A stretch of 64,000 nucleotides of DNA from Acidimicrobiales bacterium (GCA_029263175.1 JAJCXZ010000091.1:10699-74698); one strand, 5' to 3'; shown: positions 1,064 to 59,136, counted from the first letter of the stretch. A program made the numbers and translations. The notes: generated from the sequence alone by a model not told the origin.

Positions 1064-1096
1064 AACGCACGCTGGGGTCTGTCCCCAGTGTGCGTT
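1064..1096. repeat. 33-nt palindromic REP-like element, copy 1 (14-bp arms, loop TCTGT)
   Basis: AACGCACGCTGGGG-TCTGT-CCCCAGTGTGCGTT, with one G:T position. The core CTGGGGTCTGTCCCCAG is shared with the copies at 20297 and 29681. It lies between divergent gene starts at 1042 and 1178. Confidence 0.8.
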
Positions 1097-1177
1097 AGAG
1101 GCCTGACCTGACGCCGTGTTGCAGCGCTGGGACGTCCCAGAGGGGTAGTTCGAGGCGTGTGATCTACGCTCGGCGAT

Positions 1178-2221: not shown

Positions 2222-3452
2222 GACACTGGACCGACATCGGAGAATCTTTGGCGAGCGTGCGCCGCTCTTCTATGACGAGCCCCTGGAACTCATCCGAGGG
2301 GAAGGGGTGTGGCTCCTCGACGCGCACGGTCGCCGCTACCTCGACGCCTACAACAATGTGCCGTGTGTGGGTCATGCGAACCCCCGGGTTGTCGCAGCCG
2401 TCAGCGAGCAGATGGCGACGCTTCAGGTCCACAGCCGCTACGTCCATGGCGTGGTCGTGGACTACGCCGAGCGTCTTGCGGCACTCCACGCCGACCCGCT
2501 GTCGTCACTCGTGTTCGCATGCTCTGGAACCGAGGCCGACGAGATCGCCATGAGCATGGCCCGCCTCACCACCGGCAACCGGGGGTTCATCACCACCGAA
2601 GCGGCGTATCACGGCAACAACTCCGACGTCGGCCGACTCAACGACATCGGTGGCCGTGCTTCGGTCGGAAAGCCCGTCGACCCGGAGGTACGCGGTGTGC
2701 CGCTACCCGACGGCTCCCGCCGATTCGTCGAGGGGGTCGCCGCCGCAATCCGATCTCTCGACGAGGCGGGAATCGGGGTCGCTGGGGTGCTGATGTGCTC
2801 GATCCTGGCCAACGAGGGCCTGCCCCCACTCGCCGACGGTGAGATGGCGGAGGTGGCCGAGTTGGTTCACGCAGCCGGCGGTCTGATGATCGCCGATGAG
2901 GTCCAAGCCGGGTTCGCCCGCAGCGGCCGTTGGTGGGGGTACGAGTTCTCCGGTTTTGAGCCGGACATCGCCGTGATGGGCAAGCCGATGGGCGCGGGTG
3001 TTCCGTTCTCTGGCGTGGTCGCGGCCCCCGACGTGGTGGATCGGTTCCGGTCCTCGACTCGGTACTTCAACACCTTCGCGGCCACACCCGTGCAGGCCGC
3101 CGCCGGCATGGCCGTGATCGATGTCATCGAGGATGAGGGCCTGCTGGCGCAGACAACCCAGGTCGGCCGGCACCTCGCGGACGGTCTTCGCGGCCTGGGG
3201 ATCACCGATCGGCTCGGCGAGGTCCGCAATGTGGGTCTCTTCGTCGGAGCCGACTGGCTCGATGCTGACGGCGCGCCGGACGGGCAGGGTGCCAGGGCGG
3301 TTGTCAACGCGGCACGTCACGCCGGCGTCCTGATTGGGTTGGACGGCCCGCACGGTCACGTGCTGAAGCTCCGCCCTCCGCTGGTGTTCTCGGCGGCAGA
3401 CGCCGATCAACTCCTCGAGATCATCGCGGCAGTCTTCGCGTCGGCGACGTGA
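2214..3452 (+). CDS. Class III PLP-dependent aminotransferase-fold enzyme (aminotransferase or phospho-lyase type)
   Basis: Same frame as track ORF 1893..3452, trimmed to ATG 2214, which overlaps the upstream stop. Signatures: GEGVWLLDAHGRRYLDAYNNVPCVGHANPRVV, LMIADEVQAGFARSGRWWGYE, and the PLP-lysine context DIAVMGKPMGAG. Confidence 0.9.
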   Translation: MGETLDRHRRIFGERAPLFYDEPLELIRGEGVWLLDAHGRRYLDAYNNVPCVGHANPRVVAAVSEQMATLQVHSRYVHGVVVDYAERLAALHADPLSSLVFACSGTEADEIAMSMARLTTGNRGFITTEAAYHGNNSDVGRLNDIGGRASVGKPVDPEVRGVPLPDGSRRFVEGVAAAIRSLDEAGIGVAGVLMCSILANEGLPPLADGEMAEVAELVHAAGGLMIADEVQAGFARSGRWWGYEFSGFEPDIAVMGKPMGAGVPFSGVVAAPDVVDRFRSSTRYFNTFAATPVQAAAGMAVIDVIEDEGLLAQTTQVGRHLADGLRGLGITDRLGEVRNVGLFVGADWLDADGAPDGQGARAVVNAARHAGVLIGLDGPHGHVLKLRPPLVFSAADADQLLEIIAAVFASAT

Positions 3453-45370: not shown

Positions 45371-45784
45371 ATGAGCGGAATGAACATCCGGGATCACGAG
45401 CTGTTTGCGGGGCTTGGCAAGAAGGAACTCCGAGAGGTCGAACGGCTCTCAACGCCGATCTCCATCTCGGCCGGGCGGAAGGTGACCGTCGAGGGAACCC
45501 GCGGCCGCGAGTGCTTCGTGGTCATGAACGGCACCGTCGAGGTTGCCCGCCACGGCGAGAAGGTTGCCGAGATCGGGCCCGGGGGACTCGTGGGCGAGAT
45601 TGCCCTCCTCGACACGTCGGACCACACCCGCACCGCCACGGCAACCGCCTTGACCGACGCTGATGTGCTGGTGTTCTCCGCCGACGAGTTCCGGACACTG
45701 ATCACCCAACACCCGACGATCGCCGAGCGGATTGAGCGGACCGCTGTGCAGCGTCTGATCGACGACCTCTCCGCCGAGGATTAA
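45371..45784 (+). CDS. Stand-alone cyclic-nucleotide-binding (CAP-effector) domain protein
   Basis: Track ORF 45152..45784 trimmed to ATG 45371, preceded by GAGGGGGA. It has the phosphate-binding-cassette-like GPGGLVGEIALLD..HTRTATATA and the preceding beta-roll pattern. Confidence 0.75.
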   Translation: MSGMNIRDHELFAGLGKKELREVERLSTPISISAGRKVTVEGTRGRECFVVMNGTVEVARHGEKVAEIGPGGLVGEIALLDTSDHTRTATATALTDADVLVFSADEFRTLITQHPTIAERIERTAVQRLIDDLSAED

Positions 45785-46797
45785 CCGGCTACGAGTTCGG
45801 AGAACGTGCGGATCGTTGTCTCGACCTCGTCTTTGCTGACGTCGAGATGGCACACGAGCCTCGCCAACGAGCGGCGCGGGCCCGTCGTGATCATGGTCTG
45901 CACCCCGCGCTCGAGCAGCTGATCCTGAAGGGTCGGCTCGTCGCCGTCGACCTCGATGAACACCATGTTGGTGGCTTGATCCACCACCGTGATTCCGTCG
46001 ATGTTGCCGAGACCCTCGGCGAGGCGGGCGGCGTTGGCGTGATCGTCGGCCAACCGCTCGACATGATGGTCGAGGGCATGGAGCCCGGCGGCCGCGAGCA
46101 CGCCCGCTTGGCGCATCGCTCCACCGGTCATCTTGCGCCATTTGTGGGCCTCATGGATGAGCTCGGCGGGTCCGCTCAGCACTGAGCCGACCGGTGCGCC
46201 GAGTCCCTTCGACAAACACATCGAGACAGTGTCGAACTCGGAGGTGAACTCCTCGGCCGAGATGCCGAGGGCGACCACGCCGTTCCACATCCGTGCGCCG
46301 TCGAGGTGGATCGACAGGTTGTGCTTACGGCCGACGAGCGTGGCCTCACGCATCCGGTCGACTGACTGCACGTGGCCGTCCTTGGTGTTCTCCAGGCAGA
46401 GAAGCCTGGTGCGAGCAAAGTGATGGTCGTCGGGTTTCACCGATGCGTCGACGATGTCGGGGTCGATCAGACCGTCAGCGTGCATCGGGATCGGCTGGGG
46501 TTGGATGCCGCCGAGCACGGCGGCGCCGCCGCCTTCCCAGCGATAGGCATGAGCCATGTCGCCGACGATGTATTCGTCGCCGCGACCGCAGTGGGCGAGC
46601 AGCGCGCACAGGTTCGACTGAGTGCCACTGCTGACAAACAGAGCGGCCTCTTTCCCCAGTCGTTCGGCCACCGTGTCTTGCAACAAGTTGACGGTCGGGT
46701 CGTCACCGAAGACGTCATCGCCCACCTCCGCGCTCGCCATTGCAGCGCGCATGGCGTCGGTCGGACGGGTCACGGTGTCAGAACGGAGATCGATCAC
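45781..46797 (-). CDS. ltaE: Low-specificity L-threonine aldolase
   Basis: The ORF is 338 aa. [40 protein letters not shown] is diagnostic of the family, and the PLP lysine context is [12 protein letters not shown]. Confidence 0.9.
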
Positions 46798-46819
46798 CTG
46801 CCCATTGTGGCCTACCCCG

Positions 46820-46884
46820 CGGGCTTTTCTGCCACCTGCCGCACAGTTGGCGAGCGCGAGGTGGCAGAGATCGCCGGTTGGGGA
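46820..46884 (+). repeat. ~65-nt structured interspersed repeat, copy A
   Basis: CGGGCTTTTCTGCCACCTGCCGCACAGTTGGCGAGCGCGAGGTGGCAGAGATCGCCGGTTGGGG. It aligns with the copies at 47835 and 59075, all in the same orientation. Confidence 0.85.
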
Positions 46885-46908
46885 GCGCTGTCACACCCGG
46901 GTGGTTCG

Positions 46909-47826
46909 ATGACGGGCATGCGAGACATGACGAGTCTCGTTCGGACGGCCGCGAGCCAATATGGCCTCCTCTCAACCCGACAACTCCGCGAGGAAGGGGT
47001 CAGCAGGTCGAGCCAAGCCTCCATGGTCCGCTGTGGGATTCTGGAAAGCGTGCGACCGGGAGTCGTCCGTCTCATGGGCGCGCCTGAGAGCTGGGAGCAA
47101 CGTTTGCTTGCGGCGATACTGACGCCAGGGACGCAGGTCGTCGCGAGCCACCGAAGTGCACTACGTCTCTGGGGACTTCGCACTCGGTTCGACGGCATCG
47201 AGTTGGCTATCAGAGCGCCGGCAAACCGGCGCATCGGGAGCGCCCGGGTTCATCGATCGGTGGACCTTTGTCGCAGCGATATCACGGTCGTTTCCGGCAT
47301 CCGGGCAACAACGGTGGCGCGGACGATTTGCGACGCCGGCCTCATTTTCCCGGAGCGTGAGGTGCGACGACTTCTCGACCATGCCATCGGCGCCGGTCTG
47401 GTGAGCGTTCCTGAGGTCGAAGCGGTTCGGCACCGCGTCGGCGAGCACGGGCGGAACGGCGTGGTCAAGCTCGATCTCGCCGTGGACAGCCTCCCCGCGG
47501 GCGCTTCCGACGCCGAGTCGGGCCCCGAGGTTGATCTACTCCGGATTCTCGAGGAGGCCGGTCTGCCGACACCGGCCCGGCAGCACAACCTGACTGCCCA
47601 GGGCAACCGCTACCGGATCGATCTGGCCTTTCCAGCGGTCAAACTCGCCCTGGAATACGACGGCCGCGACATCCACACCCGGTTCGACCGTTTCACCGAC
47701 GATCGGCGCCGCCAAAACGACCTGGTCTGCGCGGGCTGGACGGTCCTTCGCTATACAAACGAGGACCTTCGCGACCGACCCGGGGTGATCGTCCATCAAG
47801 TCCGCCAACACCTGTCGCCCCGCTGA
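46909..47826 (+). CDS. AbiEi-like N-terminal domain + DUF559 (Vsr-like endonuclease fold) protein
   Basis: Track ORF 46372..47826 trimmed to ATG 46909. The N-terminus reads [39 protein letters not shown]. The C-terminus reads [51 protein letters not shown]. Confidence 0.8.
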
Positions 47827-47834
47827 CCCCAACC

Positions 47835-47898
47835 CGGGCTTTTGCGCCACCTGCCGCGCGGTGAACGAGCGCGAGGTGTCAGAGATCGGTGGGGGTGG
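47835..47898 (+). repeat. ~65-nt structured interspersed repeat, copy B (overlaps the 3' end of the giant gene)
   Basis: CGGGCTTTTGCGCCACCTGCCGCGCGGTGAACGAGCGCGAGGTGTCAGAGATCGGTGGGGGTGG. Confidence 0.85.
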
Positions 47899-50800
47899 TT
47901 CGGGTGAGCTCTTCGAAGCGCGACTGCGCCTGAGCGAAGTCAGCTGTGTCGAAGAGCTCGGCGGCCGCCAGCATCTCTTCCTCGAACGAGAACACAGCCA
48001 GGGCGTGCCATTCGTTTCCATCGCGGTCGCCGAACTCCGGCTCGACGAAGAGCACCGTGTCCGACATGGCGTGGACGGCCACCAGACGGTTGTGGAACCC
48101 GTCGGCGACCTCGGGGAAGGCCGTTTGAAGCTCGATCCATCCAGCGGCGTCGACGGTTCCGAAGCTGGCGGACCGGTGGTCGACAGCGACAAAGTCAGCC
48201 GCGAGGACGGACGAGTTCAGCTCGGCGTTGCCCCTCTCTTGCGCGGCCATCGCCCGCCCGAGTGCTAGCCACGACTCCGCTCCCGTGGTGGTGAGCGACT
48301 CAGCGAACCAGCGGTCGAGTATTTCGTATGCCCCGGATTCGGCTTCGGGTTCGAAGACTGCGGCCCTACGTATGAGCCCGGCGTCGTCGACCTCAACAAC
48401 GGTGAGTCGGGGCTCGGTGAACCCATCAACTGTGAAGTGGATCGTGTCGCCGGCCAGGCACAGATGGTCGAGCCTTGTGGCGCGCAGGCCCCTGGTTGCA
48501 CGGGCAACCATCTTGTGGTCGAGAACGTCGCGGAGCAGCTCACGCATGTCGTCGATGGTCCGCCGACCTGCAGAGATGAGCGTGTGGTCCTCCAAGACAC
48601 CCTGCGGGTGCCAGAGGGCGAGTGCGGCCTCGAGATCGTGATCCTCGAAGAGCGCCTTGCCGTAGGCGCTCATCGCTTGAAGGGCTCGATTCTGTAGCGC
48701 CGGAGCGGCGATGGCGAGCTCGTCGAAGCGCGCCAGGGCAGCGTCAAGATCGTCAAGGTCGTAGAACTCGGCGGCTGAGAGAGATCCCGACCTGCTCAAC
48801 GAGAAGACGGCAACGAAGCGCCACTCGTTGTCGGAGCTATCGCCGAATTGCAGCTCGAGCACGAAACCATTGGCGGAGATCGAGTGGACGGCATTCAGAC
48901 GGTTCCAAAAGCCCTCCGTTTCGCTGTGGAAGCTGTGTTGGAGGTCGATGTAGTCATCGAGGTCGACCGTTCCCCACCCACCAAGTCGATGATCGATGGC
49001 TCGAAAATCGGGCCCGGCAAGATCTCGCAGAAGGGGTTCCACCTCGTCAGCTCGGGTGAGATCGACGCTCGTCAGCAGCAGCTCGAAAATCGCCAGCACC
49101 TCAGGGTCGAGAGTGTCGGCGAACCACTCGTCGAGATGCACCATGGCATGGTCCAGTTGGTCGAGATCGAGGCTCATCAGCCGCGACACCGCGCCGCTGG
49201 GTACGACCTGTGACAGGACCAACGACTCGAGGGCGAACTCCGGCTCGGGCCCAAATCGCCATTGTTGGAGGATCAGGTCCTCTCCACGCGTGGCGATGGT
49301 CGTGACCTGTGGTTCACCGTTCGAGCGGATGAGCTCGAGCGTGGCGTCGATCATTTGTCGGGCCGTGACGATCCCGAGACCGAGACGGCGGGTCGAGGAG
49401 AACTCAGTATCGGCACCGTAGATCTCCGCCAGACCCGCCTCATCGAGGGCGGCCATGCAGGAGCGGACCTTCTCCATCGCGCGTCCAGCGTGCGTGTTCG
49501 CCAGCCCACACAGCTCATGGAACCGCGCAAGAGCCATGTCGAACGCCGTGGTCTCGTAGAACTCGGCGGTGCGGCCCATCGCCTCCCGATAGGAGAAGAC
49601 GCCGAGGAAGCTCCACTCGTTGCCGCTGTCATCGGCGATCTGCATCTCAGCGAGCAAGGCCGTCGGCGAAATTGCCCCGACCGTGACCAGACGATTCCGT
49701 AGCCCAGTGGTCAGGCGGTGGAATCCAAGCTGAAGCTCCACCCAGCCGTCCACACCGACTCGGCCCCACCCTGCCGGTCGGTGATCGGTGGCGCTGAAGT
49801 CCTGATGCAGCTGGGCGCGTATCGCCGTCTCGTCCCCCAATTGTTGGGCCCGCATTCCTTCTCGATGTGCCTCGAAGACCGTTCCCTCGTCTGCGGTCAG
49901 TGAATCGGCGAACCAGCCGTCGAGAAGCGCGAAGGCATCGTCGCTCTGCTCGGGCTCGAAGTAGGCGTAGCGAGTGATCAGGCTGGCGTCGTTGACCTCA
50001 CAGATGGTGAGCCGCTCGTGCACGAACCCTTCGACTGAAAGCTCGCTCGTGGTGCTGAGGAGGCAGACATGCTGGCCGCGAGTTGCCAGAACCTCGGTCA
50101 GGGACGCGGCAAAGTCCTCGTTGTCCATCAGATCAGCGGCGACGGCCCGCCACTGCTCGACCGTATAGGTCGTGTCGAAGAGCGCTCGACGATCCTGCAT
50201 GACGGCGTTTGACGCGTACTGCTCCAACATCGTTTCGATGTCGCGAGCGAAGAACGCATCTCGGGCTCGGGCGGCCGTCGCCGAGGCTCGGTTCGACAGG
50301 CGGTCTGTCGGGACTGTCAGCTCGTCGAATCGGGCGAGCGCTGCGTCGATACTGTCGACGTCGAATTCCTCCCAGCGCATGACGAGGCTGTCATGCACTT
50401 CGACGAGCAGAAGCGACCGCCACTCCGTCTCGGTGCCCAACGCATCGACGGCGCGTGGTTCGGTGTCGAGCACGCACACGGTCTCGGAAATGGCGAGGAC
50501 GCCGTGGGAAACGGCGGTTACGTCTCCCGCGAGTTCCAACCAGGTGCGCATGCTCTCGATGAAGCCGTCGGCGTCCTGTTCGTGGCCGATCACGCTCTTG
50601 TTGACGCTGAGGGCGAAGTCCGGCGCCAGCGCGGCTCGGGCTCGTTCCCAATCGTGGGCGTAGAGGGCATCAATGAGATCCAAGAGCGGGTCGACGACGC
50701 TCCGAGCTCGAGCGCCATCCAGATCCGACTCGTACCAGAGCTCGATCGCGTGGCGCTGCGCTTCATAGAACTCGGCGTAGTCGAATGCCCTTGCTCCATC

Positions 50801-53800
50801 AGGTGATCCGATTCGGACGCGAGATCGATCGCGGTCGAGCTCGATGGTCACCGGCTGGGTCGAACCGAGCTGGCAGACCAGCTCCCATCGAGGGGCCGTG
50901 AGCTCGTCGAACCGACCGACAGCGGCGTCCACGGCATCGACGTCGAACCACTCCATGCGGTCGACGAGTTCGCCATCGAGGATGAAGAGGACAAGACGAG
51001 GCCCCTCGACGTTGACACCGGTTTCGCCCTTGACCGTGCTCACGAGCTCGAGCAACACACCCTCCTCTGTCACGCGGAGATAGCTACTCGGGCTGGTTCG
51101 CCATGAACCCTGACCCTGAATGTCGGCGAGCGAATCGAGGTATTGGTCGATCGTCAACTCGCCGAAGCCGATCGAACGGCGGTCGACGAGCGTGAACGAG
51201 TCGGTGAGGCTCTCGCGCATGCCTTCACCATCGGTGCGGCGCAACGCAGCGCCGACCCGATCGGTCGTCTCGATCGCAGCGCGGAATGGCGCAGCCTCAC
51301 CTTCGAGCCACCACTCACGAAGGAGGCGCAGCGCCTCAGCCATCTGGGTGGTGTCGAATGCGGTGAGGCGCTTCTGCAGGCCGGCATCGTCGACTTCTAG
51401 GACGGCGAGGAACTCGATTTCGTCGTCATTCCCGGTGGCGAACCGGATCGTGGCCAGGATGAGCTGTTCACCTCGAAACGCGATGACCGCGGTGTCGAAG
51501 CGATCGAAGCCGACGGCGACGAACGCGTTGATGACATCTAGGTGTTCGGCCAGAGCGAAAACACGAGCGCCGCCGGTGCTGTGTCGAAGAGATGTGTCGA
51601 CATAGTCCGATCGGAGGAGCGCCGCATAGCTGTCGATATCGCCTGCTGTCAGTGCCGCGATTGCCTTTGCGTGCGACTGCTCGGCGAGCGTTTGGTGCTG
51701 TCTTCGATCGATGCCGGAAGCGCGGTCGGGGGGAGTGTTCTTGTCGGCCACATATCCGGTTAGTTCGTCAAAGCGAGCGAGGGCCCGATCGAGCTCGTGA
51801 CCGTCGAACCATTCACCGCGGGCGATCTTGCCGTCACGAACCACCGTCATGAAGACCAGCTCTGATTCGGCCTCGAACCCGTCGTTGGTGCGGGTGACGT
51901 GGCGGCCTGTGGCCACCGTGCCAGATCCGGTGAGCCGGTGGAATTCCGTGGCGAAGACTTGCTCGCTGCTCTGGCCGTCGGTCCACTCGCCGACGAGGTC
52001 AGCCGCGTCCGACCGGTCCATGGTTGGCAATCCGAGCTCCCGATGGTCGACGAACTCTGCGTCCGCGAGCATGTCCGCGGCGAGCTCCTCCGCCCTGCCG
52101 TGCTCGAGGTTGTGTGAGGTGCGGGTCAGCAGTCGGATGATTTCGGCGTGCTCCGGCGTCTCGCCCTCCGCCCACCAGTCGCTGAGGCGGTCGACTGCCT
52201 CGCCCATCGCTTCGGGGTCGAGCAACTCGGCGCGCGTCACGAGCCCGGCAGAGTCGATCTGTGCGACGGCGATCATCTGGCTGACGTAGCCATTGGACGG
52301 CCGGTCCATGTCCGCCGTGAATAGGGCCAAGTCGTCCCCTCGAATCGCCTGAAGAGTGAGCGAGATGCCGACCACATCGGCGTCCTTCATCCTGTGGACG
52401 TGCTCCTCGGGCGTGTAGATCTCGTGGCGCAGCTGCCGACTGTCGTGGATGAATGCTGCCGGACTGAAGCTCGCAATCACCGCCTCCCAGTCTTGAGCGT
52501 TGATGGCCGCGACCTGGCGCGCCCAAACGGCAGACGCACGATTGCCGAATCGGTCGGCCGGTTCGCGCGTCAACTCGTCGTACCGGGCTATGGCGCGATC
52601 GAGATCGTCGACGTCGAACAGCTCGATGCGGGTGGCGAGACCGTCGGTACCGAGGACGAGCGTGTACATCTGCCACTCGACGTGGCCGCCCGCCTCGTCG
52701 AATTCGAGGGTCTGCACGTGGACCAGGATCGACTCGCCGGCAATGCGTACGTAGTCGCGGACGATGACTTGGTTCTGGTCGGCCTCGTAGCTGGCTGCCA
52801 GGTTTGCGCTTCCCTCGCGATTCATCGTGCCGAAACCCAGGCGGCGATGGTCGACGAAGACAAGATCGTCTGCCATCCGGTCGCGGTGGGCGTCGGCGCG
52901 ATCCCCAGCATTGCTTTCACCGGCAATGCTGAACGACCATGCCAACTCGATGATCTCTCGGTACGGTGCTCCCTCGCCCTCGAGGTAGAGCTGGTTGAGC
53001 TTGTCGAGCGCGCCGCGAAGATCATCGGCCGGGTACGCAACTGTCGTCTCGACCTGGCCACCGGTATCGAGACGGATCACTCGATAGCGGGCCGCTTCGG
53101 CGCTGCCCACACGTGAGGCGACACAACGCTGACCTCGTCGCGCGACGGTCTCAACGGTGAGTCCTTTCGCCGCCGCTTCGGTCCGGGCGACCTGTTCGGC
53201 CGCAGTGAGGTCGACCGCCGGACTCCCGGACACGTCCTCGAATCGGCGAATGGCCCGGTCGAGGTCGTGGAAGTAGAAGAGTTCCATCCGGGTGAGCCGG
53301 CCAGCGGCGAAACTCATCAGCGAGAGGCCCGGCTCCTGTTCGATGTGGCGGCCGTCAGTATTCGAATGGGCGCGGTAGTCAAGAAGGATGGCTGTGGGAC
53401 TGATGCGGAGATAGCGGCGAGCGACGATGAGGAATCCGGCGGCTGAGGCGGTCTCCACAAGCATGGCAAGGAGCGGAACCTCGATCTTGAGCCGCTGGTG
53501 GTCGACGAAGACCCCATCGGGATCGACCAGCCTCTCAACTGTCGCGACATCGCCGTCCACGTTCGCCTGCCGGAATCTGGTGCTGATATCGATCGGCTCG
53601 GCGAAGTCCGCGCCCTCGCCCTCGAGATAGAGGCGATTCAGCTCGTCGAGTGCCGGGCGAATGTCGTCCTCCCCCAAGAACACGCCGTAGTCGGACAATC
53701 CGTTTGCCGCCGTCCGCGAGACGATCAGCGATGTGTTGACGAAGCCGTTTTCGGCTTCCATCCGCCAGGAGACGAGCGCAAGCCGGTCGCCGCGGATGGC

Positions 53801-56800
53801 GATCGGCTTGGCCGTGACGGTGAGGCCGAACTCGGCCCGAGAGCGCATGGCATCGATTCGATCCTTTGCGCCGACCGACGGGTGCCCCATCTGACGGGTG
53901 TCGACGCTGTCGTAGTCCTCGGCGAACTGCTCCAAGGCTTCGTCCCAACCCTTGGCGTTGACCAGGTCGCACACGCGGAGGATGCCTCGGGTCGCCGCGT
54001 TGTCGAGCGCGAAGTGATCTGGATTGGTGGGGTCCCTGGTGGCAAGAACTCGCGCCTCCAGCTCCTCCCAGGCGGCACGCAGTCGGGCCTCGTCCGGCGA
54101 GAGTGCGAGCGTGTCGAACATCGCCAGCGCCTCGGATTCGGTATCAAACACCCAGCAGCGTTGCAGTCTGGCGCGGTCCGACAGCTGGTTGACCTGGAAC
54201 CACTGGACTGTTCCGCTGCCGTCGGTGGCAGCGAGGGATGACTCGACGAGGACGATGTCTTCGCCACGCGTCGCGATGACCACGACTCGATGGCCGAAGT
54301 CCGGCAGGCCCTCCATCGCCGTAATGAACGCCTCCTGCATCTGGTCGGTGCCGGCGAGGACGCTTTGCATCCCCTGGCGACAGTCTTCGAAACGCACGTC
54401 GGGCTCGCTGAGCCCCGTGAAGCTCGGATCGCCGCTCCAGACGAGGCGGGATATCAGTCGGGCTGATCGGGCACAGACATTGTCCGGAACGACCGATTCG
54501 ACGGCATTCGACGCTGTCGCCGCCGGGGCATCGGCGGCCGTTGGCGGCTGTGCGCCCTTCGCCTCATAGAGGCTCGCCGCTTGACGTGATGCGCCGTCGG
54601 CCGAGGCTGCGTTGCCGGCGCGGGCATGCACGACGGCAAGCGTCGACACGGCCCGAGCGTGATCGATCGTGAGGTCGGTGCCTCCGGCGATCTCGACGGC
54701 GGCCTCCGCCAATGCGATCGCTTCGTCGAACCGGCCCTGTTCCGCGGCGATCTCCGCGCCGGCGGCCCGTGAGGCGATCGCCGTTTGGAGATTCTGGCCC
54801 GCCAGTTCCTGCGACTCGACCGCAAGGGGAGCGGCCTGGTCGACACGGCCCTGCAGGACGAGTGCCCGCGAGAGCAAGGCGGCCGCCTGGCCGGCATCAG
54901 CACCAATCCCGAGATTGCCGAGCCCGGCATAGGCACGACGGAGGAACGGTTCGGCCGCCGCCGGGTCGTCGGCGAAGAGCTCGATCACGCCGGCGAACAT
55001 GTCGGTCTCGAGGATGCCGTGGCGCAGACCGAGCTCTTCGACCGTCCCACGGGCTCGCTCGATCAGCTCTCGGGCCTGATCGAACCGTCCCCTCATCGCT
55101 TCCAGCACAGCCTGGCACCGCACCGAGGTGGCCTCGACCATCGGCGAGGCAGACGTGATGCGGAGGAGACGAATGATGTCGAGGCAGCGGCCGCCGGCGC
55201 GGGCAACCGGGGAAGGACCCCAGAGAGCGGCGAGGGGCGCGGCGCCGAGGACGGCGGTGATACGACGGCGGTCGTCGGCCGCGCGGGCGGCCGTGAGCGC
55301 GGCGTCGAGTTCGGTCTCGGCGTCGCCGACGCGGCCGAGACGAGCGAGCACAATTGCCCGCACGAGGCGGGCCTTGGCGACGCCGGCTTGGTCATCGAGG
55401 GCATCGAGCAGCGAAGCGGCGTTGTCGAGCTGTGGTTCGACCGCGCCGAGTCGCTCCGGTTCGGCGAGCCACGCACGATGGCCGGCGAAGGCGTCGGCCC
55501 ACGCCGTCAATCGAACGTCATCGAGTGCAACTTCGCGGAGCTCATCGAAGTGAGGATCGGCCTCTCGGACATTGCCCGAGGAGAAGAACGCCTCGCAGGC
55601 GACGACCAACAGGTCGGCTCGTTCCGGAGCGTCGTTGGGGAGTCGGGCGAGCGCCCGTTGGGCCAACGAACCAGCCGCAGTGAGGTCGTCCTGGGCCAGG
55701 GCTCGCTCACCGGCGATCTGGAAGAGCTGCGCCGCTTTGCCGCCCAGCTCTTCGGCGTCGTCGTCCATTGCGCCGAGCTGGCTTCGAAACTCGTGCGCCT
55801 GTTCGTAGTGAAACCCGATGGTGATCTCGTGCTCGCCGCCGAAGCGCTCCGCGGCATCGGAGGTCCATTCGGCCACCTGCTCATGGAGAGCGGCTCGGCG
55901 TTGCTTCAGGATGCGGCGGTAGCTCGCGTCGCGGATGAGGACGTGGTGGAAGCGAAGGATCGGCTCATCGCCCCAGTAGGTGCCGGTCGGGTCGATGATC
56001 TCCTTGCGGCGGAGACGCTCGAGGATGGCATCGAGCCCTGCTCGCTCGGCGGCCGGGAGGAGAGCAGCGACGGCGCCGCGGGCGAACTCGGATCCGACGA
56101 TCGCCGCCATCTCGACCACGCGCCGTTCGTCGGCCGGCATGCGCTCGACGCGGCTGGCCAGCAAGGACTGGATCGTCGGGGGGACTTCGATCGCTTCCGG
56201 GTCGATCGCCAGTTCCCACCGGCCATCTCGTTCGTGGATCACACCGTCGTCGACCAGCATTCGCACCAACTCACGCACGAAGAGCGGGTTGCCGTCCGTG
56301 GACTCGGGCAGGCGGGCGACGAGTTCGGTCGGGAGGGCTGCGCCGAGGAGGCCGGCGGCGAGTTCCTCGGTGGCAGCTGCGCCGAGGCCCTCGAGCGAGA
56401 CCACCTCGCTGACTCGGCGGCCGACCTCGGCCAGGGCCGGGCGGATCTCTCGGATCTCGGGTCGGGCCAGGCAGATGAGCGCCACGGGTCCTGCCACCCA
56501 TTCGGTCAGGTGGTCGAGGAGGTCGAGGAAAAGCGGCTGAGCCCACTGGATGTCGTCGACCACGATGACCGTGGGGCGCCGGCTAGCGAGGATTTCGAGG
56601 AGACGGCGGCTGGCCCAGAACGACTCCTCGGTACTCCGGGCAGGCGATGCGCCGACGAAGGTGGCCAGCAGGGGAGCGAGGACTCCCACATCGCCGTCGT
56701 TGCCGATCCATGTCTCGATCGCCGTGATCGTTGTCCCTGAATCGCTGCCTTCGAGATCCACTACTTGACGAAGTAGGTCACCGACGGGGCCGAACGAGGC

Positions 56801-57754
56801 CGTGCCGGCGCGGTCCACGCGCAGGTCGAACGACTGGGCGTGGGGTGCCGCGATCGCCCGGGTCTCGGCGGCAAGGCGTGTCTTGCCCACGCCGGGCGAC
56901 CCGACCACCGTGACCAGTATCGGTGCTCGCTCGGTGATGGCCTTGTCGATGGCGGCCGTCAACGTCTCGATCTCGTCTCCGCGGCCAACGAAAGGGGTGC
57001 CGGCGTCGTGATCTACTCCGGCTGCGGGTGCTTCGACGACTTGGAACGTGGCGATCGCTTCGTCCTTTCCCTTGACGTGGACTTCACCGAGCACCTCGTA
57101 GGTGATGTTCGATCGAGTGAGGCGCCAGGTCTGCTCACCGACGAGTACGCGGCCGGGAGTGCATTCGCCTTCGATGCGAGCGGCCGTGTTGAGGGCATCG
57201 CCGAACATGTCGTCGTCGGAGTCGGCCATCACGATCTCGCCGGTGTTGATGCCGACCCGGAGATCGACGTCGGCGTTGTGGACATCGAGGATGCGCTCGG
57301 CGAAGCCGGCGAACTCGGTCTGCAAGTCGACTCCGGCGCGTACCGCTCGCTCGGCGTCGTCCTCGGCGATGTCGGGGATACCGAACACGGCCATCACGCC
57401 GTCGCCGATGAACTTGGCGACGGTGCCGTCATGGCGTTCGATCACCACCTGGGCAAGGCGCTGGTAGTCGCTCATTTCGGCGCGTGCGGTCTCGGCGTCG
57501 ATCTTCTCGCCGAACGCCGTCGACCCGACGAGGTCGGCGAACATCACCGTGACCGTCTTGCGCGTGGCTCCGCCATCGTCCTCGGTGGGCTTCGGGGCGG
57601 CGTGGTCGACGGGTGTCCCACACTGGTCGCAGAACTTGGCGGTCGCCATGAGTGGTGCGGCGCAAGTAGCGCACGAACGACTTAGCGCGGCCCCACAGCC
57701 CGCGCAGAAGTTTGCGGTCGTCCGGTTCTCAGTCCCGCAGGCGCTGCAATCCAT
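47879..57754 (-). CDS. Giant multidomain protein: double zinc ribbon, class III adenylate/guanylate cyclase, P-loop STAND-type NTPase, TPR-like region and ~17 tandem uncharacterised modules
   Basis: A single 3,291-aa ORF. By residue number: aa 1-50, four CxxC pairs; aa ~65-240, FADLVGST, VAKFIGDGVMAVF, RVGINTGE and GDALNTAARIEG; aa 285-292, GSPGVGKT with Walker B TVIVVDDIQW; aa ~640-1065, an Ala/Leu-rich helical region; aa ~1086-3291, repeats ending in R-F-D-E-L-T-like motifs. Confidence 0.9.
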   Translation of the reverse strand: MDCSACGTENRTTANFCAGCGAALSRSCATCAAPLMATAKFCDQCGTPVDHAAPKPTEDDGGATRKTVTVMFADLVGSTAFGEKIDAETARAEMSDYQRLAQVVIERHDGTVAKFIGDGVMAVFGIPDIAEDDAERAVRAGVDLQTEFAGFAERILDVHNADVDLRVGINTGEIVMADSDDDMFGDALNTAARIEGECTPGRVLVGEQTWRLTRSNITYEVLGEVHVKGKDEAIATFQVVEAPAAGVDHDAGTPFVGRGDEIETLTAAIDKAITERAPILVTVVGSPGVGKTRLAAETRAIAAPHAQSFDLRVDRAGTASFGPVGDLLRQVVDLEGSDSGTTITAIETWIGNDGDVGVLAPLLATFVGASPARSTEESFWASRRLLEILASRRPTVIVVDDIQWAQPLFLDLLDHLTEWVAGPVALICLARPEIREIRPALAEVGRRVSEVVSLEGLGAAATEELAAGLLGAALPTELVARLPESTDGNPLFVRELVRMLVDDGVIHERDGRWELAIDPEAIEVPPTIQSLLASRVERMPADERRVVEMAAIVGSEFARGAVAALLPAAERAGLDAILERLRRKEIIDPTGTYWGDEPILRFHHVLIRDASYRRILKQRRAALHEQVAEWTSDAAERFGGEHEITIGFHYEQAHEFRSQLGAMDDDAEELGGKAAQLFQIAGERALAQDDLTAAGSLAQRALARLPNDAPERADLLVVACEAFFSSGNVREADPHFDELREVALDDVRLTAWADAFAGHRAWLAEPERLGAVEPQLDNAASLLDALDDQAGVAKARLVRAIVLARLGRVGDAETELDAALTAARAADDRRRITAVLGAAPLAALWGPSPVARAGGRCLDIIRLLRITSASPMVEATSVRCQAVLEAMRGRFDQARELIERARGTVEELGLRHGILETDMFAGVIELFADDPAAAEPFLRRAYAGLGNLGIGADAGQAAALLSRALVLQGRVDQAAPLAVESQELAGQNLQTAIASRAAGAEIAAEQGRFDEAIALAEAAVEIAGGTDLTIDHARAVSTLAVVHARAGNAASADGASRQAASLYEAKGAQPPTAADAPAATASNAVESVVPDNVCARSARLISRLVWSGDPSFTGLSEPDVRFEDCRQGMQSVLAGTDQMQEAFITAMEGLPDFGHRVVVIATRGEDIVLVESSLAATDGSGTVQWFQVNQLSDRARLQRCWVFDTESEALAMFDTLALSPDEARLRAAWEELEARVLATRDPTNPDHFALDNAATRGILRVCDLVNAKGWDEALEQFAEDYDSVDTRQMGHPSVGAKDRIDAMRSRAEFGLTVTAKPIAIRGDRLALVSWRMEAENGFVNTSLIVSRTAANGLSDYGVFLGEDDIRPALDELNRLYLEGEGADFAEPIDISTRFRQANVDGDVATVERLVDPDGVFVDHQRLKIEVPLLAMLVETASAAGFLIVARRYLRISPTAILLDYRAHSNTDGRHIEQEPGLSLMSFAAGRLTRMELFYFHDLDRAIRRFEDVSGSPAVDLTAAEQVARTEAAAKGLTVETVARRGQRCVASRVGSAEAARYRVIRLDTGGQVETTVAYPADDLRGALDKLNQLYLEGEGAPYREIIELAWSFSIAGESNAGDRADAHRDRMADDLVFVDHRRLGFGTMNREGSANLAASYEADQNQVIVRDYVRIAGESILVHVQTLEFDEAGGHVEWQMYTLVLGTDGLATRIELFDVDDLDRAIARYDELTREPADRFGNRASAVWARQVAAINAQDWEAVIASFSPAAFIHDSRQLRHEIYTPEEHVHRMKDADVVGISLTLQAIRGDDLALFTADMDRPSNGYVSQMIAVAQIDSAGLVTRAELLDPEAMGEAVDRLSDWWAEGETPEHAEIIRLLTRTSHNLEHGRAEELAADMLADAEFVDHRELGLPTMDRSDAADLVGEWTDGQSSEQVFATEFHRLTGSGTVATGRHVTRTNDGFEAESELVFMTVVRDGKIARGEWFDGHELDRALARFDELTGYVADKNTPPDRASGIDRRQHQTLAEQSHAKAIAALTAGDIDSYAALLRSDYVDTSLRHSTGGARVFALAEHLDVINAFVAVGFDRFDTAVIAFRGEQLILATIRFATGNDDEIEFLAVLEVDDAGLQKRLTAFDTTQMAEALRLLREWWLEGEAAPFRAAIETTDRVGAALRRTDGEGMRESLTDSFTLVDRRSIGFGELTIDQYLDSLADIQGQGSWRTSPSSYLRVTEEGVLLELVSTVKGETGVNVEGPRLVLFILDGELVDRMEWFDVDAVDAAVGRFDELTAPRWELVCQLGSTQPVTIELDRDRSRVRIGSPDGARAFDYAEFYEAQRHAIELWYESDLDGARARSVVDPLLDLIDALYAHDWERARAALAPDFALSVNKSVIGHEQDADGFIESMRTWLELAGDVTAVSHGVLAISETVCVLDTEPRAVDALGTETEWRSLLLVEVHDSLVMRWEEFDVDSIDAALARFDELTVPTDRLSNRASATAARARDAFFARDIETMLEQYASNAVMQDRRALFDTTYTVEQWRAVAADLMDNEDFAASLTEVLATRGQHVCLLSTTSELSVEGFVHERLTICEVNDASLITRYAYFEPEQSDDAFALLDGWFADSLTADEGTVFEAHREGMRAQQLGDETAIRAQLHQDFSATDHRPAGWGRVGVDGWVELQLGFHRLTTGLRNRLVTVGAISPTALLAEMQIADDSGNEWSFLGVFSYREAMGRTAEFYETTAFDMALARFHELCGLANTHAGRAMEKVRSCMAALDEAGLAEIYGADTEFSSTRRLGLGIVTARQMIDATLELIRSNGEPQVTTIATRGEDLILQQWRFGPEPEFALESLVLSQVVPSGAVSRLMSLDLDQLDHAMVHLDEWFADTLDPEVLAIFELLLTSVDLTRADEVEPLLRDLAGPDFRAIDHRLGGWGTVDLDDYIDLQHSFHSETEGFWNRLNAVHSISANGFVLELQFGDSSDNEWRFVAVFSLSRSGSLSAAEFYDLDDLDAALARFDELAIAAPALQNRALQAMSAYGKALFEDHDLEAALALWHPQGVLEDHTLISAGRRTIDDMRELLRDVLDHKMVARATRGLRATRLDHLCLAGDTIHFTVDGFTEPRLTVVEVDDAGLIRRAAVFEPEAESGAYEILDRWFAESLTTTGAESWLALGRAMAAQERGNAELNSSVLAADFVAVDHRSASFGTVDAAGWIELQTAFPEVADGFHNRLVAVHAMSDTVLFVEPEFGDRDGNEWHALAVFSFEEEMLAAAELFDTADFAQAQSRFEELTRTTPTDL

Positions 57755-59014: not shown

Positions 59015-59074
59015 ACGAAGCAGCGCGGACTCGAGCCGACGATCGCCTTCGACCCCTGAACTCGAGTCCCATCT

Positions 59075-59136
59075 CGGGCTTCTGCGCCACCTGCCGCGCG
59101 TTTGACGGGCGCGGGGTGGCAGAGATCGGGGTGGGG
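59075..59136 (+). repeat. ~65-nt structured interspersed repeat, copy C
   Basis: CGGGCTTCTGCGCCACCTGCCGCGCGTTTGACGGGCGCGGGGTGGCAGAGATCGGGGTGGGG. It lies between the convergent stops at 59014 and 59146. Confidence 0.85.

What the first reader, a model, noticed from the sequence alone, without database searches (positions are those of the whole stretch)
47879..57754. Giant 3,291-aa protein: zinc ribbon, class III cyclase, STAND NTPase, TPR and a repeat array
Seen directly: one uninterrupted 9,876-nt ORF on the minus strand.
- aa 1-50 carry four CxxC pairs (CSAC, CAGC, CATC, CDQC), forming a double zinc ribbon.
- aa ~65-240 have the class III nucleotidyl cyclase hallmarks: both metal Asp (FADLVGST, IGDGVMAVF), the purine-contact Lys (VAKFIGDG) and the transition-state Asn (GDALNTAARIEG).
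- aa ~255-620 form a P-loop NTPase, with Walker A GSPGVGKT at aa 285-292 (nt 56879-56902) and Walker B TVIVVDDIQW.
- aa ~640-1065 are Ala/Leu-rich helical repeats.
- aa ~1086-3291 are a long module array, reported as a separate finding.

Established knowledge: cyclase-ATPase-TPR proteins exist in actinobacteria (the mycobacterial Rv0386 type), but those end in a LuxR-type HTH. Effector / STAND NTPase / repeat-sensor is also the layout of NLR-like switches, including antiviral Avs proteins.

Inference: I see no HTH here. Two thirds of the protein is an array of an unassigned module, so this looks like a cyclic-nucleotide-generating STAND switch with an unusually large, possibly multivalent, sensor arm. 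Its neighbours fit a signalling or defence-type island but do not prove one. They are an AbiEi/DUF559 gene, flanking interspersed repeats and a small cNMP-binding protein 2 kb away.
Basis: partly seen in the sequence, partly recalled or inferred. Interest (0 to 1): 0.85.

Follow-up and report, generated by a model that had tools for sequence, protein, structure and literature searches.

The report
Giant cyclase–STAND protein with NTF2-domain array
A real 3,291-residue gene of a Microthrix-like actinobacterium joins a cAMP-making enzyme and an ATP-driven switch to 17 NTF2-type domains; it belongs to a large family that is in the databases but that no paper I found has studied, and nothing points to phage defence.

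Summary
The layout is:
- double zinc ribbon (aa 3-46)
- class III cyclase with a complete catalytic residue set and an adenine-type Lys/Asp pair (aa 62-241)
- STAND NTPase of the MalT/PH0952 type (aa 254-615)
- TPR arm (aa 617-1066)

The "unassigned" C-terminal module is a divergent NTF2-like (SnoaL_2-like) domain. There are 17 copies (15 full, 2 truncated), arranged as alternating A-B pairs. A 534-aa stretch was modelled at pLDDT 89 and matches ketosteroid isomerase and tandem NTF2 epoxide hydrolases.

The protein is not unique. More than 1,500 protein clusters carry this array, with up to 29 modules, in Mycobacterium, Acidimicrobiia and other groups. In mycobacteria an N-terminal SARP DNA-binding domain replaces the zinc ribbon.

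The gene keeps the same housekeeping neighbourhood (ValRS ... threonine aldolase, ROK, LigD) across Acidimicrobiales. No defence model matches its NTPase.

Best reading: a cytoplasmic ligand-gated STAND switch whose oligomerisation activates adenylyl cyclase. The function is inferred, not tested, and I found no paper on this architecture.

The parts
47879..57754 (-). Whole gene: 3,291 codons plus stop codon (47879-47881)
   Evidence: ORF list and translation. An identical protein is in NCBI, annotated 35 aa shorter (P0001).
57617..57748 (-). Double zinc ribbon, aa 3-46 (eight Cys in four CxxC pairs)
   Evidence: Pfam DZR 8.6e-9 and Zn_Ribbon_1. The Cys are invariant or nearly invariant in 21 homologues.
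57032..57571 (-). Class III nucleotidyl cyclase catalytic domain, aa 62-241. Key residues are D74, K114, D118, D182, N189, R193 and K230.
   Evidence: Pfam PF00211 at 76.8 bits. PDB sequence hits Cya2 and CyaB. Residue census in homologues. Fold TM 0.91-0.92 to Ma1120 and Rv1900c.
55910..56995 (-). STAND nucleotide-binding oligomerisation module, aa 254-615 (P-loop domain, helical domain with GNP 488-490, winged helix with HH 603-604)
   Evidence: Pfam AAA_16 1.9e-17. The motifs are invariant in 21 homologues. AF2 model and Foldseek best hit PH0952, 6mfv, E 2.8e-12.
56879..56902 (-). Walker A, GSPGVGKT, aa 285-292
   Evidence: Read directly. G285-K291 are invariant.
56552..56569 (-). Walker B, VIVVDD, aa 396-401
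   Evidence: Read directly. D401 is invariant and D400 nearly so.
54557..55906 (-). TPR-like helical-hairpin arm, aa 617-1066, with an invariant stretch at aa 836-890
   Evidence: Pfam TPR_12 is weak. AF2 gives helices 617-1066 with pLDDT mostly above 85. The region aligns with the TPR sensor of 6mfv.
47882..54499 (-). Array of 17 NTF2-like modules, aa 1086-3291, in the order B0, A1, B1, A2(truncated), B2, A3, B3, A4, B4, A5(truncated), B5, A6, B6, A7, B7, A8, B8. A-type modules end in L..W[WF].E; B-type modules end in ALARFDEL.
   Evidence: Self-BLAST, module alignment, module HMM with 17 hits, Pfam SnoaL_2.
48713..50314 (-). Modules A6-B6-A7-B7 (aa 2481-3014), the stretch that was modelled
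   Evidence: AF2 pLDDT 89, pTM 0.69: four alpha+beta cone domains, each followed by a linker helix. Foldseek matches Lsd19/MonB, iota-carbonic anhydrase and ketosteroid isomerase.
45371..45784 (+). Small stand-alone cNMP-binding protein (about 137 aa from M74 of the listed ORF). It is a possible reader of the signal but is not shown to be linked.
   Evidence: Pfam cNMP_binding 3.3e-16. 70% identical and syntenic in the Microthrix MAG L001. Not seen in the Acidimicrobiales locus L004.

Best explanation
This is a cytoplasmic, vertically inherited signalling protein of a Candidatus Microthrix-like actinobacterium.

**Shown: the anatomy**
- a double zinc ribbon
- a class III (IIIc-like) cyclase domain with a full catalytic residue set and the Lys/Asp pair typical of adenylyl cyclases
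- a MalT/PH0952-type STAND NTPase with intact Walker A, Walker B, GxP and winged-helix His motifs
- a TPR arm
- 17 divergent NTF2-like modules in A-B pairs

**Inferred: the mechanism**
1. At rest the NTPase holds ADP, and the TPR and NTF2 arm keeps the protein monomeric and closed.
2. One or more ligands bind the arm. NTF2-like cones usually hold small hydrophobic molecules; a protein partner is also possible. Binding releases the autoinhibition.
3. The NTPase takes up ATP and multimerises.
4. Multimerisation brings the N-terminal cyclase domains into the head-to-tail dimers that class III cyclases need to form active sites.
5. The cAMP made is then read by cNMP-binding proteins, such as the small one 2 kb away or CRP-type regulators.
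For: **Cyclase**
- Pfam 76.8 bits.
- K114 aligns with the base-specifying position of Cya2, which is Glu in the guanylyl cyclase and Lys in the engineered adenylyl form 6fht.
- Of the seven key positions, the Asn and Arg are invariant, the two metal Asp are kept in 27 of 28 zinc-ribbon-type homologues, and the Lys/Asp specificity pair in 20 of 28 (Gln in the other 8 at the Lys position).
- Fold TM 0.91-0.92 to the mycobacterial cyclases Ma1120 and Rv1900c.

**STAND and TPR**
- AAA_16.
- Motifs invariant in 21 homologues.
- The best PDB fold match over 822 columns is PH0952 (6mfv, E 2.8e-12).

**Array**
- High-confidence NTF2-like model.
- Modules retained between close orthologues are 59-87% identical. 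The N-terminal collinear block is 72-80% identical. So individual modules look constrained rather than being mere spacer.

**Not defence, and vertically inherited**
- Conserved position next to ValRS, threonine aldolase, ROK and LigD in L001 and L004.
- The mycobacterial homologues are likewise syntenic with each other.
- The neighbours in eight sampled loci are diverse metabolic genes.
- No PADLOC STAND hit.

That class III cyclases are active only as dimers is established knowledge of the family, not tested here.
Against: - No activity, ligand or oligomer was measured.
- No conserved partner gene was found that would name the pathway.
- The pockets of the NTF2 modules could not be inspected because the tools return no coordinates. 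A ligand-binding role for them is therefore an analogy.
- The loop just before D182 is 6 residues shorter than in Cya2, which makes the D182 assignment less certain.
- The N-terminal 1,070 aa are much better conserved across the order (64% to P0023) than the modules (27-44%). The TPR arm could therefore be the real sensor, with the array doing something else.
- The cNMP-binding neighbour is syntenic only within Microthrix.
Confidence: 0.55

Rival explanations
1. The NTF2 array is not a small-molecule sensor. It is a structural or avidity element: a long rod or scaffold that spaces, tethers or self-assembles the switch, or that binds a repetitive or polymeric target. Sensing would be done by the TPR arm alone.
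For: - The most conserved features of every module are the boundary helices (ALARFDEL and L..W.E motifs) and hairpin turns. That fits conservation of architecture.
- Whole A-B pairs are gained and lost between close relatives.
- Module number ranges up to 29 in the family.
- The N-terminal 1,070 aa, including an invariant TPR stretch at aa 836-890, are far better conserved than the modules.
- The closest solved STAND uses its TPR as the sensor.
Against: - Orthologous modules are kept at 59-87% identity, about as well as the catalytic part.
- NTF2-like domains in characterised proteins are typically pocket-bearing enzymes or binders (hits).
- Conserved charged residues (D-x-R after strand 1, E in strand 5) recur inside the modules, not only at their boundaries.
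Confidence: 0.2
2. It is an antiviral STAND (Avs-like or Pycsar-like) defence protein. The repeat arm recognises phage proteins and the cyclase makes a cyclic nucleotide that triggers an abortive-infection effector.
For: - The effector / STAND / repeat-sensor layout resembles Avs proteins.
- The cyclase domain gives PycC hits in PADLOC (best 9.7e-16), and the small cNMP-binding neighbour hits the cNMP-binding part of Pycsar effector models.
- An AbiEi-type gene lies next door.
- Module turnover could reflect an arms race.
- One homologous locus has toxin-antitoxin pairs nearby (L008).
Against: - The PycC hits are weaker than the generic Pfam cyclase hit (55.9 against 76.8 bits) and cover only the shared catalytic fold.
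- No PADLOC model matches the NTPase or the array.
- The cNMP-binding neighbour has no TIR, membrane or other killing domain.
- The base-specifying pair is Lys/Asp, the adenine type.
- The gene keeps its place among housekeeping genes across the order. In mycobacteria it is fused to a SARP DNA-binding domain, which marks a transcription regulator.
- The AbiEi gene lacks an AbiEii partner and lies elsewhere in a sister genome.
Confidence: 0.07
3. The NTF2-like modules are enzymes (isomerase, epoxide hydrolase or polyketide-cyclase type). The protein would then be a multi-enzyme assembly coupled to a regulator.
For: The best tandem fold matches are the polyether epoxide hydrolases Lsd19 and MonBI/MonBII, and iota-carbonic anhydrase, which are themselves built of repeated NTF2-like domains. 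One homologous locus (L005) lies among lipid or steroid-type catabolic genes.
Against: - Sequence identity to those enzymes is 8-20% and their relative domain orientation is not reproduced (rmsd about 12 A).
- No enzyme-family Pfam or NCBIfam model is matched above threshold.
- No biosynthetic gene cluster surrounds the gene in nine loci.
- The residues conserved among modules do not correspond to a known catalytic set. This last point is my inference and was not tested structurally.
Confidence: 0.05
4. The long ORF is an assembly artefact or a decaying pseudogene.
For: The orthologue in the Microthrix MAG L001 is broken into two overlapping ORFs. The M. flavescens homologue is split in two genes.
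Against: - Here the frame is open for 9,876 nt.
- The repeats are too diverged at DNA level to mis-assemble.
- All catalytic and NTPase motifs are intact.
- Intact orthologues exist (P0002, P0003).
Confidence: 0.02

Closest known systems
Mycobacterial cyclase-ATPase-TPR-LuxR proteins (Rv0386, Rv1358, Rv2488c type)
   Same: An N-terminal class IIIc-type cyclase domain followed by a P-loop ATPase of the AAA_16/MalT kind and helical repeats, and an actinobacterial host. The architecture of Rv0386 is as described in bioRxiv 10.1101/2024.03.06.583649.
   Different: There is no C-terminal LuxR HTH here. This protein has an N-terminal double zinc ribbon and a 2,200-aa NTF2-like array that those proteins lack. 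From memory, Rv0386 has Gln/Asn at the substrate positions; here they are Lys/Asp.
PH0952 of Pyrococcus horikoshii and MalT: STAND NTPases with a TPR or superhelical sensor (PDB 6mfv; PMC6468293, PMC4381067)
   Same: Best structural match of aa 1-1085 over 822 aligned columns. It shares the NOD-arm-TPR order and, presumably, the ADP-closed to ATP-open multimerisation switch.
   Different: Sequence identity is only 13%, and no sequence-level PDB hit exists for aa 245-1085. The output here is a fused cyclase rather than a DNA-binding or unknown output, and the NTF2 array is an extra arm.
Giant SARP-cyclase-AAA_16-NTF2-array proteins of Mycobacterium (database names 'BTAD domain-containing putative transcriptional regulator', 'class 3 adenylate cyclase', 'nuclear transport factor 2 family protein')
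   Same: The same cyclase-STAND-TPR-NTF2 A-B array backbone, 3,000-3,900 aa. The array is homologous at E values down to 1e-181.
   Different: They carry an N-terminal SARP (Trans_reg_C + BTAD) domain instead of the zinc ribbon. Their cyclase has Glu at the second metal position and Leu in place of the last Lys, so it may be catalytically different. They are only about 25% identical in the array. I found no publication on them either.
SnoaL_2 extensions of actinobacterial ECF sigma factors (the ECF56 SigG1 type; ECF41 from memory)
   Same: An NTF2-like/SnoaL_2 domain is used as a regulatory appendage of a cytoplasmic signalling protein in Actinobacteria (PMC7730460, abstract seen).
   Different: Those have a single domain fused to a sigma factor. 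This has 17 tandem domains fused to a STAND cyclase.
Tandem NTF2-like proteins Lsd19, MonBI/MonBII and iota-carbonic anhydrase
   Same: They are the best multi-domain fold matches of the modelled A-B-A-B stretch (E about 2e-11 to 1e-8). They also string NTF2-like domains together.
   Different: They have two to four domains and are enzymes. Identity is 8-13% and the domain packing is different (rmsd about 12 A or more).
Pycsar and Avs anti-phage systems
   Same: A class III-type cyclase (Pycsar), or the effector-STAND-sensor order (Avs).
   Different: There is no adjacent effector with a killing domain, no Avs model hit and no defence-island context.

Membership tests
Class III nucleotidyl cyclases (Pfam PF00211) | Profile match above the curated threshold | tested here: met
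   76.8 bits against a cut-off of 21.9, aa 66-237. PDB cyclase hits down to 2e-18. Fold TM 0.85-0.92.
Class III nucleotidyl cyclases (Pfam PF00211) | Two metal-binding Asp, transition-state Asn and Arg, phosphate-binding Lys | tested here: met
   D74, D118, N189, R193 and K230 sit in the aligned columns. N and R are invariant in 28 zinc-ribbon-type homologues, the two metal Asp are present in 27 of 28, and the last Lys is Lys in 16 and Arg in 11.
Class III nucleotidyl cyclases (Pfam PF00211) | Adenine-specifying Lys/Asp pair (as against Glu/Cys-type for guanine) | tested here: met
   K114 aligns with the Cya2 specificity Glu and with the Lys of the ATP-converted 6fht. D182 lies two residues before the FGD motif, and Asp is at that column in 20 of 28 homologues. 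The D182 assignment is less certain because the preceding loop is 6 residues shorter.
Class III nucleotidyl cyclases (Pfam PF00211) | Cyclase activity as a dimer | not testable with these tools
   Needs an enzyme assay.
STAND NTPases, MalT/PH0952-like (AAA_16) | P-loop NTPase with Walker A and Walker B (hhhhDD) | tested here: met
   GSPGVGKT 285-292 and VIVVDD 396-401. AAA_16 1.9e-17. Invariant in homologues.
STAND NTPases, MalT/PH0952-like (AAA_16) | Helical domain with a GxP motif and a winged-helix domain with a conserved His, followed by a repeat sensor | tested here: met
   GNP 488-490 and HH 603-604 are invariant. The AF2 model shows the NBD, helical, winged-helix and TPR order. Foldseek best hit is 6mfv, E 2.8e-12 over 822 columns. 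TMq is only 0.25, so the relative domain positions differ or are uncertain.
STAND NTPases, MalT/PH0952-like (AAA_16) | Inducer- and ATP-dependent multimerisation | not testable with these tools
   Needs biochemistry.
Rv0386-type cyclase/LuxR regulators | C-terminal LuxR-type HTH | tested here: not met
   No HTH or GerE family among the Pfam or NCBIfam hits at E<=0.1. The C-terminus is an NTF2-like module.
NTF2-like superfamily (SnoaL_2, PF12680) | Profile match | tested here: met
   The whole protein scores 44.8 bits against a cut-off of 27. Scanned singly, 6 of 15 modules hit SnoaL_2 at E 2e-4 to 0.02, all below the cut-off. It is therefore a divergent subfamily without its own model.
NTF2-like superfamily (SnoaL_2, PF12680) | Alpha+beta cone fold | tested here: met
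   AF2 pLDDT 89. Foldseek to ketosteroid isomerase gives TM 0.70-0.76, and limonene epoxide hydrolase, SnoaL-like CatM and SgcJ are also matched, all with probability 1.00.
Antiviral STAND (Avs) / defence NLR-like | NTPase or sensor matches a defence-system model | tested here: not met
   PADLOC gives no STAND, Avs or NLR hit for aa 1-1060 and no hit at all for the modelled array stretch.
Antiviral STAND (Avs) / defence NLR-like | Location in variable defence islands | tested here: not met
   Same position among ValRS, threonine aldolase, 2-hydroxyacid dehydrogenase, ROK and LigD in L001 and L004. Nine loci is a small sample, so no statistics were possible.
Pycsar | Cyclase gene next to an effector that has a cNMP-binding domain plus a TIR or membrane domain | tested here: not met
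   The nearest cNMP-binding protein is about 137 aa with no second domain. It is separated by two genes and lies on the other strand.

The most novel reading that the evidence does not exclude
The array is a combinatorial chemosensor. Each of the 15-17 NTF2-like cones would bind its own small (probably hydrophobic) metabolite, and all of them would gate one STAND switch that writes the result into cAMP. Birth and death of A-B pairs would retune the ligand repertoire between species. That would make it a many-input cytoplasmic receptor of a kind not described for bacteria, present in thousands of actinobacterial and other genomes.
Probability: 0.15. Interest if true: 0.8.

Novelty: new variant of a known kind. 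Interest (0 to 1): 0.5.

Why it matters
Fusions of a cyclase to a STAND NTPase are known in mycobacteria, but what they sense is not. This protein belongs to a large branch of that group in which the switch carries 10-29 NTF2-like domains: at least 1,500 sequence clusters and proteins up to 5,200 aa. My literature searches found no paper on that branch.

Showing what the array binds would identify an input to cAMP signalling in Mycobacterium and in the sludge-bulking filament Microthrix. It would also explain why bacteria maintain some of their largest cytoplasmic proteins.

For this window alone the result is more modest. It is a well-supported annotation, and it corrects the "unassigned module" and "defence island" readings.

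Tried and rejected
- **Exact-sequence look-up of P0001 for its source contig:** not on record. The organism was inferred from the nearest genome hit, an uncultured Candidatus Microthrix MAG at 74%.
- **Sequence-only PDB search of the NTPase and TPR part (aa 245-1085):** no hit even at E<=1. A family profile found only cyclases among the 60 matches listed, of 69 at E<=0.1. The STAND assignment therefore rests on Pfam AAA_16, the motifs and the fold search.
- **Tandem Repeats Finder and DNA repeat search inside the ORF:** nothing that could cause mis-assembly.
- **PADLOC:** only generic cyclase and AbiEi hits.
- **Six literature searches plus reading within four papers:** no paper on a cyclase-STAND protein with NTF2/SnoaL arrays. 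The library lacks most subscription journals, so this is absence of evidence only.
- **Fast-evolving spacer idea:** I first read the poor DNA-level and BLAST alignment of the middle of the array with the orthologue P0003 as rapid divergence. The module-by-module comparison showed instead that retained modules are 59-87% identical and that whole A-B pairs come and go, so I dropped that reading.
- **68-nt flanking repeat:** absent from the sister locus and not unusually structured. I left it as a side note.
- **Second paralogue upstream of ValRS (as in L004):** not present in this window. That region encodes the C-terminus of a P-type ATPase.

Full report
**1.
The window has one uninterrupted ORF at 47879-57754 on the minus strand, 3,291 aa with an ATG start.
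- Four CxxC pairs lie in aa 3-45.
- FADLVGST, VAKFIGDG, IGDGVMAVF and GDALNTAARIEG lie in aa 72-196.
- Walker A GSPGVGKT is at aa 285-292 (nt 56879-56902).
- Walker B is within TVIVVDDIQW.

Pfam confirms DZR (aa 3-46, 8.6e-9), Guanylate_cyc (aa 66-237, 2e-21), AAA_16 (aa 254-418, 1.9e-17) and weak TPR_12. It adds SnoaL_2 (2e-11) in the C-terminal part. NCBIfam adds only a partial match to the cyclase/ATPase part of TIGR03903, far below its cut-off.

**2. It is not an artefact.**
- Inside the ORF there are no tandem DNA repeats. The best dispersed repeat is a 45-nt motif at 60-76% identity.
- The protein modules are 22-45% identical to each other.
- An identical protein is in NCBI. It is annotated from M36, which cuts off the first zinc ribbon (P0001).
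- The longer start is supported. The orthologue P0003 aligns from residue 1, and C3, C6, C17 and C20 are nearly invariant in 21 homologues.

**3. The cyclase.**
- The closest solved sequences are Cya2 (2w01, 2e-18) and CyaB.
- K114 aligns with the base-specifying residue. That residue is Glu in the guanylyl cyclase Cya2 and Lys in the ATP-converted chimera 6fht.
- D74 and D118 (metal), D182, N189 and R193 (transition state) and K230 are present. In the 28 zinc-ribbon-type homologues the Asn and Arg are invariant, the two metal Asp are kept in 27, and Lys/Asp occupy the two specificity positions in 20.
- The loop before D182 is six residues shorter than in Cya2.
- The best structural matches are the mycobacterial enzymes Ma1120 and Rv1900c, with TM 0.91-0.92.
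- Both points fit subclass IIIc. That subclass label is my reading from knowledge of the family. The enzyme looks competent and adenine-specific, but neither property was tested.

**4. The NTPase and the helical arm.**
- Walker A, Walker B, a GNP motif (aa 488-490) and a winged-helix HH (aa 603-604) are invariant in 21 homologues.
- Sequence searches of PDB with this part find nothing.
- An AF2 model of aa 1-1085 has pLDDT 84.5 and pTM 0.55. Its best fold match is PH0952, the STAND protein with a TPR sensor (6mfv, E 2.8e-12, 822 aligned columns).
- Aa 617-1066 are a run of helical hairpins. They contain a strikingly invariant stretch at aa 836-890.
- No HTH of any kind is found.

**5. The "unassigned module" is an NTF2-like domain.**
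- Self-comparison, a module alignment and a module HMM give 17 modules between aa 1086 and 3291. Fifteen are full and two are truncated (aa 1510-1598 and 2287-2348).
- The modules alternate between an A type, ending L..W[WF].E(GE), and a B type, ending ALARFDEL.
- I modelled A6-B6-A7-B7 (aa 2481-3014) with an alignment of 16 such four-module units. The result was pLDDT 89 and pTM 0.69. It shows four alpha+beta cones, each closed by a linker helix that carries the conserved boundary motif.
- Foldseek finds the tandem NTF2 epoxide hydrolases Lsd19 and MonBI/II (E about 2e-11), iota-carbonic anhydrase, and ketosteroid isomerase for single modules (TM 0.70-0.76).
- Scanned one by one, the modules stay below the SnoaL_2 gathering score: best 22.4 against 27 bits, with 6 of 15 giving weak hits. 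This explains why a reader without tools could not place them. It also shows that no dedicated family model exists.

**6. The protein belongs to a large family.**
- A search with aa 1061-3291 returned 223 proteins. Two close relatives have the same layout: P0002 (2,745 aa) and P0003 (3,641 aa).
- About twenty more zinc-ribbon/cyclase/AAA_16/NTF2 proteins come from Acidimicrobiales and other Actinomycetota MAGs.
- Dozens of 3,000-3,900-aa Mycobacterium proteins replace the zinc ribbon with a SARP DNA-binding domain. The databases name them "BTAD domain-containing putative transcriptional regulator", "class 3 adenylate cyclase" or "nuclear transport factor 2 family protein".
- A few array proteins come from Kofleriaceae, Eisenbacteria and Binatia.
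- The four-module profile hits 4,372 clusters at 50% identity, 1,525 of them at E<=1e-30, with lengths up to 5,200 aa.
- Module counts reach 29, so 17 modules is ordinary for this family.
- The SARP branch has Glu at the second metal site and Leu instead of the last Lys, so its cyclase may behave differently.

**7. Organism and context.**
- The nearest genome hit is an uncultured Candidatus Microthrix MAG at 74% (L001). Its lineage is Acidimicrobiia, Microthrixaceae.
- In the window the order is ValRS, TauD, the giant gene, AbiEi/DUF559, threonine aldolase, small cNMP-binding protein, 2-hydroxyacid dehydrogenase, ROK, LigD.
- L001 keeps ValRS ... giant ... threonine aldolase, the same small cNMP-binding gene (70% identical), 2-hydroxyacid dehydrogenase and ROK. 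The genes immediately flanking the giant gene differ, and the AbiEi homologue lies on the other side.
- A more distant Acidimicrobiales genome (L004, P0023) has ValRS, a methyltransferase, the giant gene, threonine aldolase ... TauD, ROK, LigD, plus a second paralogue upstream of ValRS.
- The mycobacterial genes are also syntenic with each other: phosphodiesterase, giant gene, ArsR/AHSA1, two DUF899.
- Other loci show unrelated metabolic neighbours.
- This is a vertically inherited stand-alone chromosomal gene, not a defence-island gene.
- PADLOC gives only generic PycC matches to the cyclase fold, weaker than the Pfam match, and nothing for the NTPase or the array.

**8. How the array evolves.**
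- Against P0003, aa 1-1509 are collinear at 80%. Against P0002, aa 1-1999 are collinear at 72%.
- Module by module, most modules have a clear orthologue at 59-87% identity.
- A3, A7 and B7 have none in either relative. B3 has none in P0002, and A2t/B2 have none in P0003. So A-B pairs are gained and lost while retained modules stay constrained.
- Against the positional orthologue P0023 the N-terminal part is 64% identical but no module exceeds 44%.

**9. Mechanism.**
The anatomy above is shown. The mechanism is inferred from the STAND paradigm of an ADP-closed monomer, inducer binding to the sensor arm and an ATP-open multimer (PMC6468293 and PMC4381067, seen), and from the established need of class III cyclases to dimerise:
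- Ligand binding to the TPR/NTF2 arm would release autoinhibition.
- The NTPase would multimerise and the N-terminal cyclase domains would pair and make cAMP.

What the arm binds is unknown. NTF2-like cones usually hold small hydrophobic molecules. Both Microthrix and Mycobacterium are lipid specialists (my background knowledge), and one homologue lies among lipid or steroid-type catabolic genes. These are leads, not evidence.

The main rival is that the TPR arm is the sensor and the array is structural or an avidity element. Defence, enzymatic and artefact readings are less likely, for the reasons given under each rival.

**10. Comparison and novelty.**
- It works like the MalT/PH0952/AfsR class of STAND switches.
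- It resembles the Rv0386 group in its cyclase-ATPase-TPR core, but it fails that group's defining LuxR HTH.
- It is a member of class III cyclases, of AAA_16-type STANDs and of the NTF2-like superfamily.
- It is not a member of Avs or Pycsar by the features I could test.
- Six literature searches found no description of a STAND cyclase with an NTF2 array. Two broad surveys of STAND or conflict systems do not mention it: one search has no "cyclase" or "NTF2" in the text, and mentions NTF2 once in another context.
- I therefore rate it a new variant of a known kind. The variant is already abundant in sequence databases under automatic names, and this copy is a typical member.

**11. Verdict.**
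- Interest is moderate (0.5). The annotation is solid and the family is large, giant and unstudied, but nothing about this particular copy is exceptional and its function remains inferred.

Noticed in passing
window 46813-46880, 47828-47895, 59068-59135: A 68-nt interspersed direct repeat occurs three times (75-84% identity to the reference copy). A 24-nt core is found 3 times where 0 are expected by chance. Copies 1 and 2 bracket the AbiEi/DUF559 gene. Copies 2 and 3 bracket TauD plus the giant gene. Copy 2 overlaps the giant gene's stop codon. The repeat is absent from the sister locus L001, where the AbiEi homologue lies on the other side of the giant gene. Its RNA fold is not unusual (z = -0.4). 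It may mark recombination or insertion points.
   Followed up: partly
window 57650-57754 (aa 1-35): The public NCBI copy of this protein (P0001, 3,256 aa) starts at M36 and so lacks the first zinc ribbon. Conservation in homologues supports the upstream ATG at 57754.
   Followed up: yes
window 46372-47826 (+): The listed 484-aa ORF matches AbiEi only from aa 180 and DUF559/MTES_1575 at aa 411-481. Its first third overlaps the threonine aldolase gene on the other strand, so the real gene is probably about 46887-47826. No AbiEii toxin gene is adjacent.
   Followed up: partly
L001 9893-21008: The Microthrix MAG orthologue is split into two overlapping ORFs (1,128 and 2,792 aa). This is a frameshift or an assembly error in that MAG.
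   Followed up: no
L007 5152-17540 (Mycolicibacterium flavescens): The homologue is encoded as two adjacent genes: SARP-cyclase-AAA_16 (904 aa) and an NTF2 array alone (3,179 aa). This may explain some of the 'NTF2-only' giant proteins in the hit list.
   Followed up: no
L004 1-4614: An Acidimicrobiales genome has a second zinc-ribbon/cyclase/AAA_16/NTF2 paralogue immediately upstream of ValRS, in addition to the positional orthologue. The window has no such copy; a P-type ATPase end lies there instead.
   Followed up: yes
L011 1752-3858; L008 20157-24416: Shorter relatives lack the cyclase and NTPase. One is a 50-aa zinc-ribbon ORF directly followed by a 650-aa NTF2 array, probably one gene. 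The other is a 1,419-aa array-only gene near a full-length giant. Zinc ribbon and array may therefore work together independently of the switch.
   Followed up: no
window 55085-55249 (aa 836-890): An almost invariant stretch lies inside the TPR arm (LGAAPLAALWGPSPVARAGGRCLDIIRLLRIT...), conserved across 21 homologues that are only 45-88% identical overall. It is a candidate ligand or autoinhibition site.
   Followed up: no
L005 (P0044 locus): This homologue is embedded among lipid or steroid-type catabolic genes: FadD, lipase, WS/DGAT, enoyl-CoA hydratase, P450, TetR, ChsH2-like and thiolase. It is a single case, but worth a family-wide check given the ketosteroid-isomerase-like fold of the modules.
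   Followed up: no
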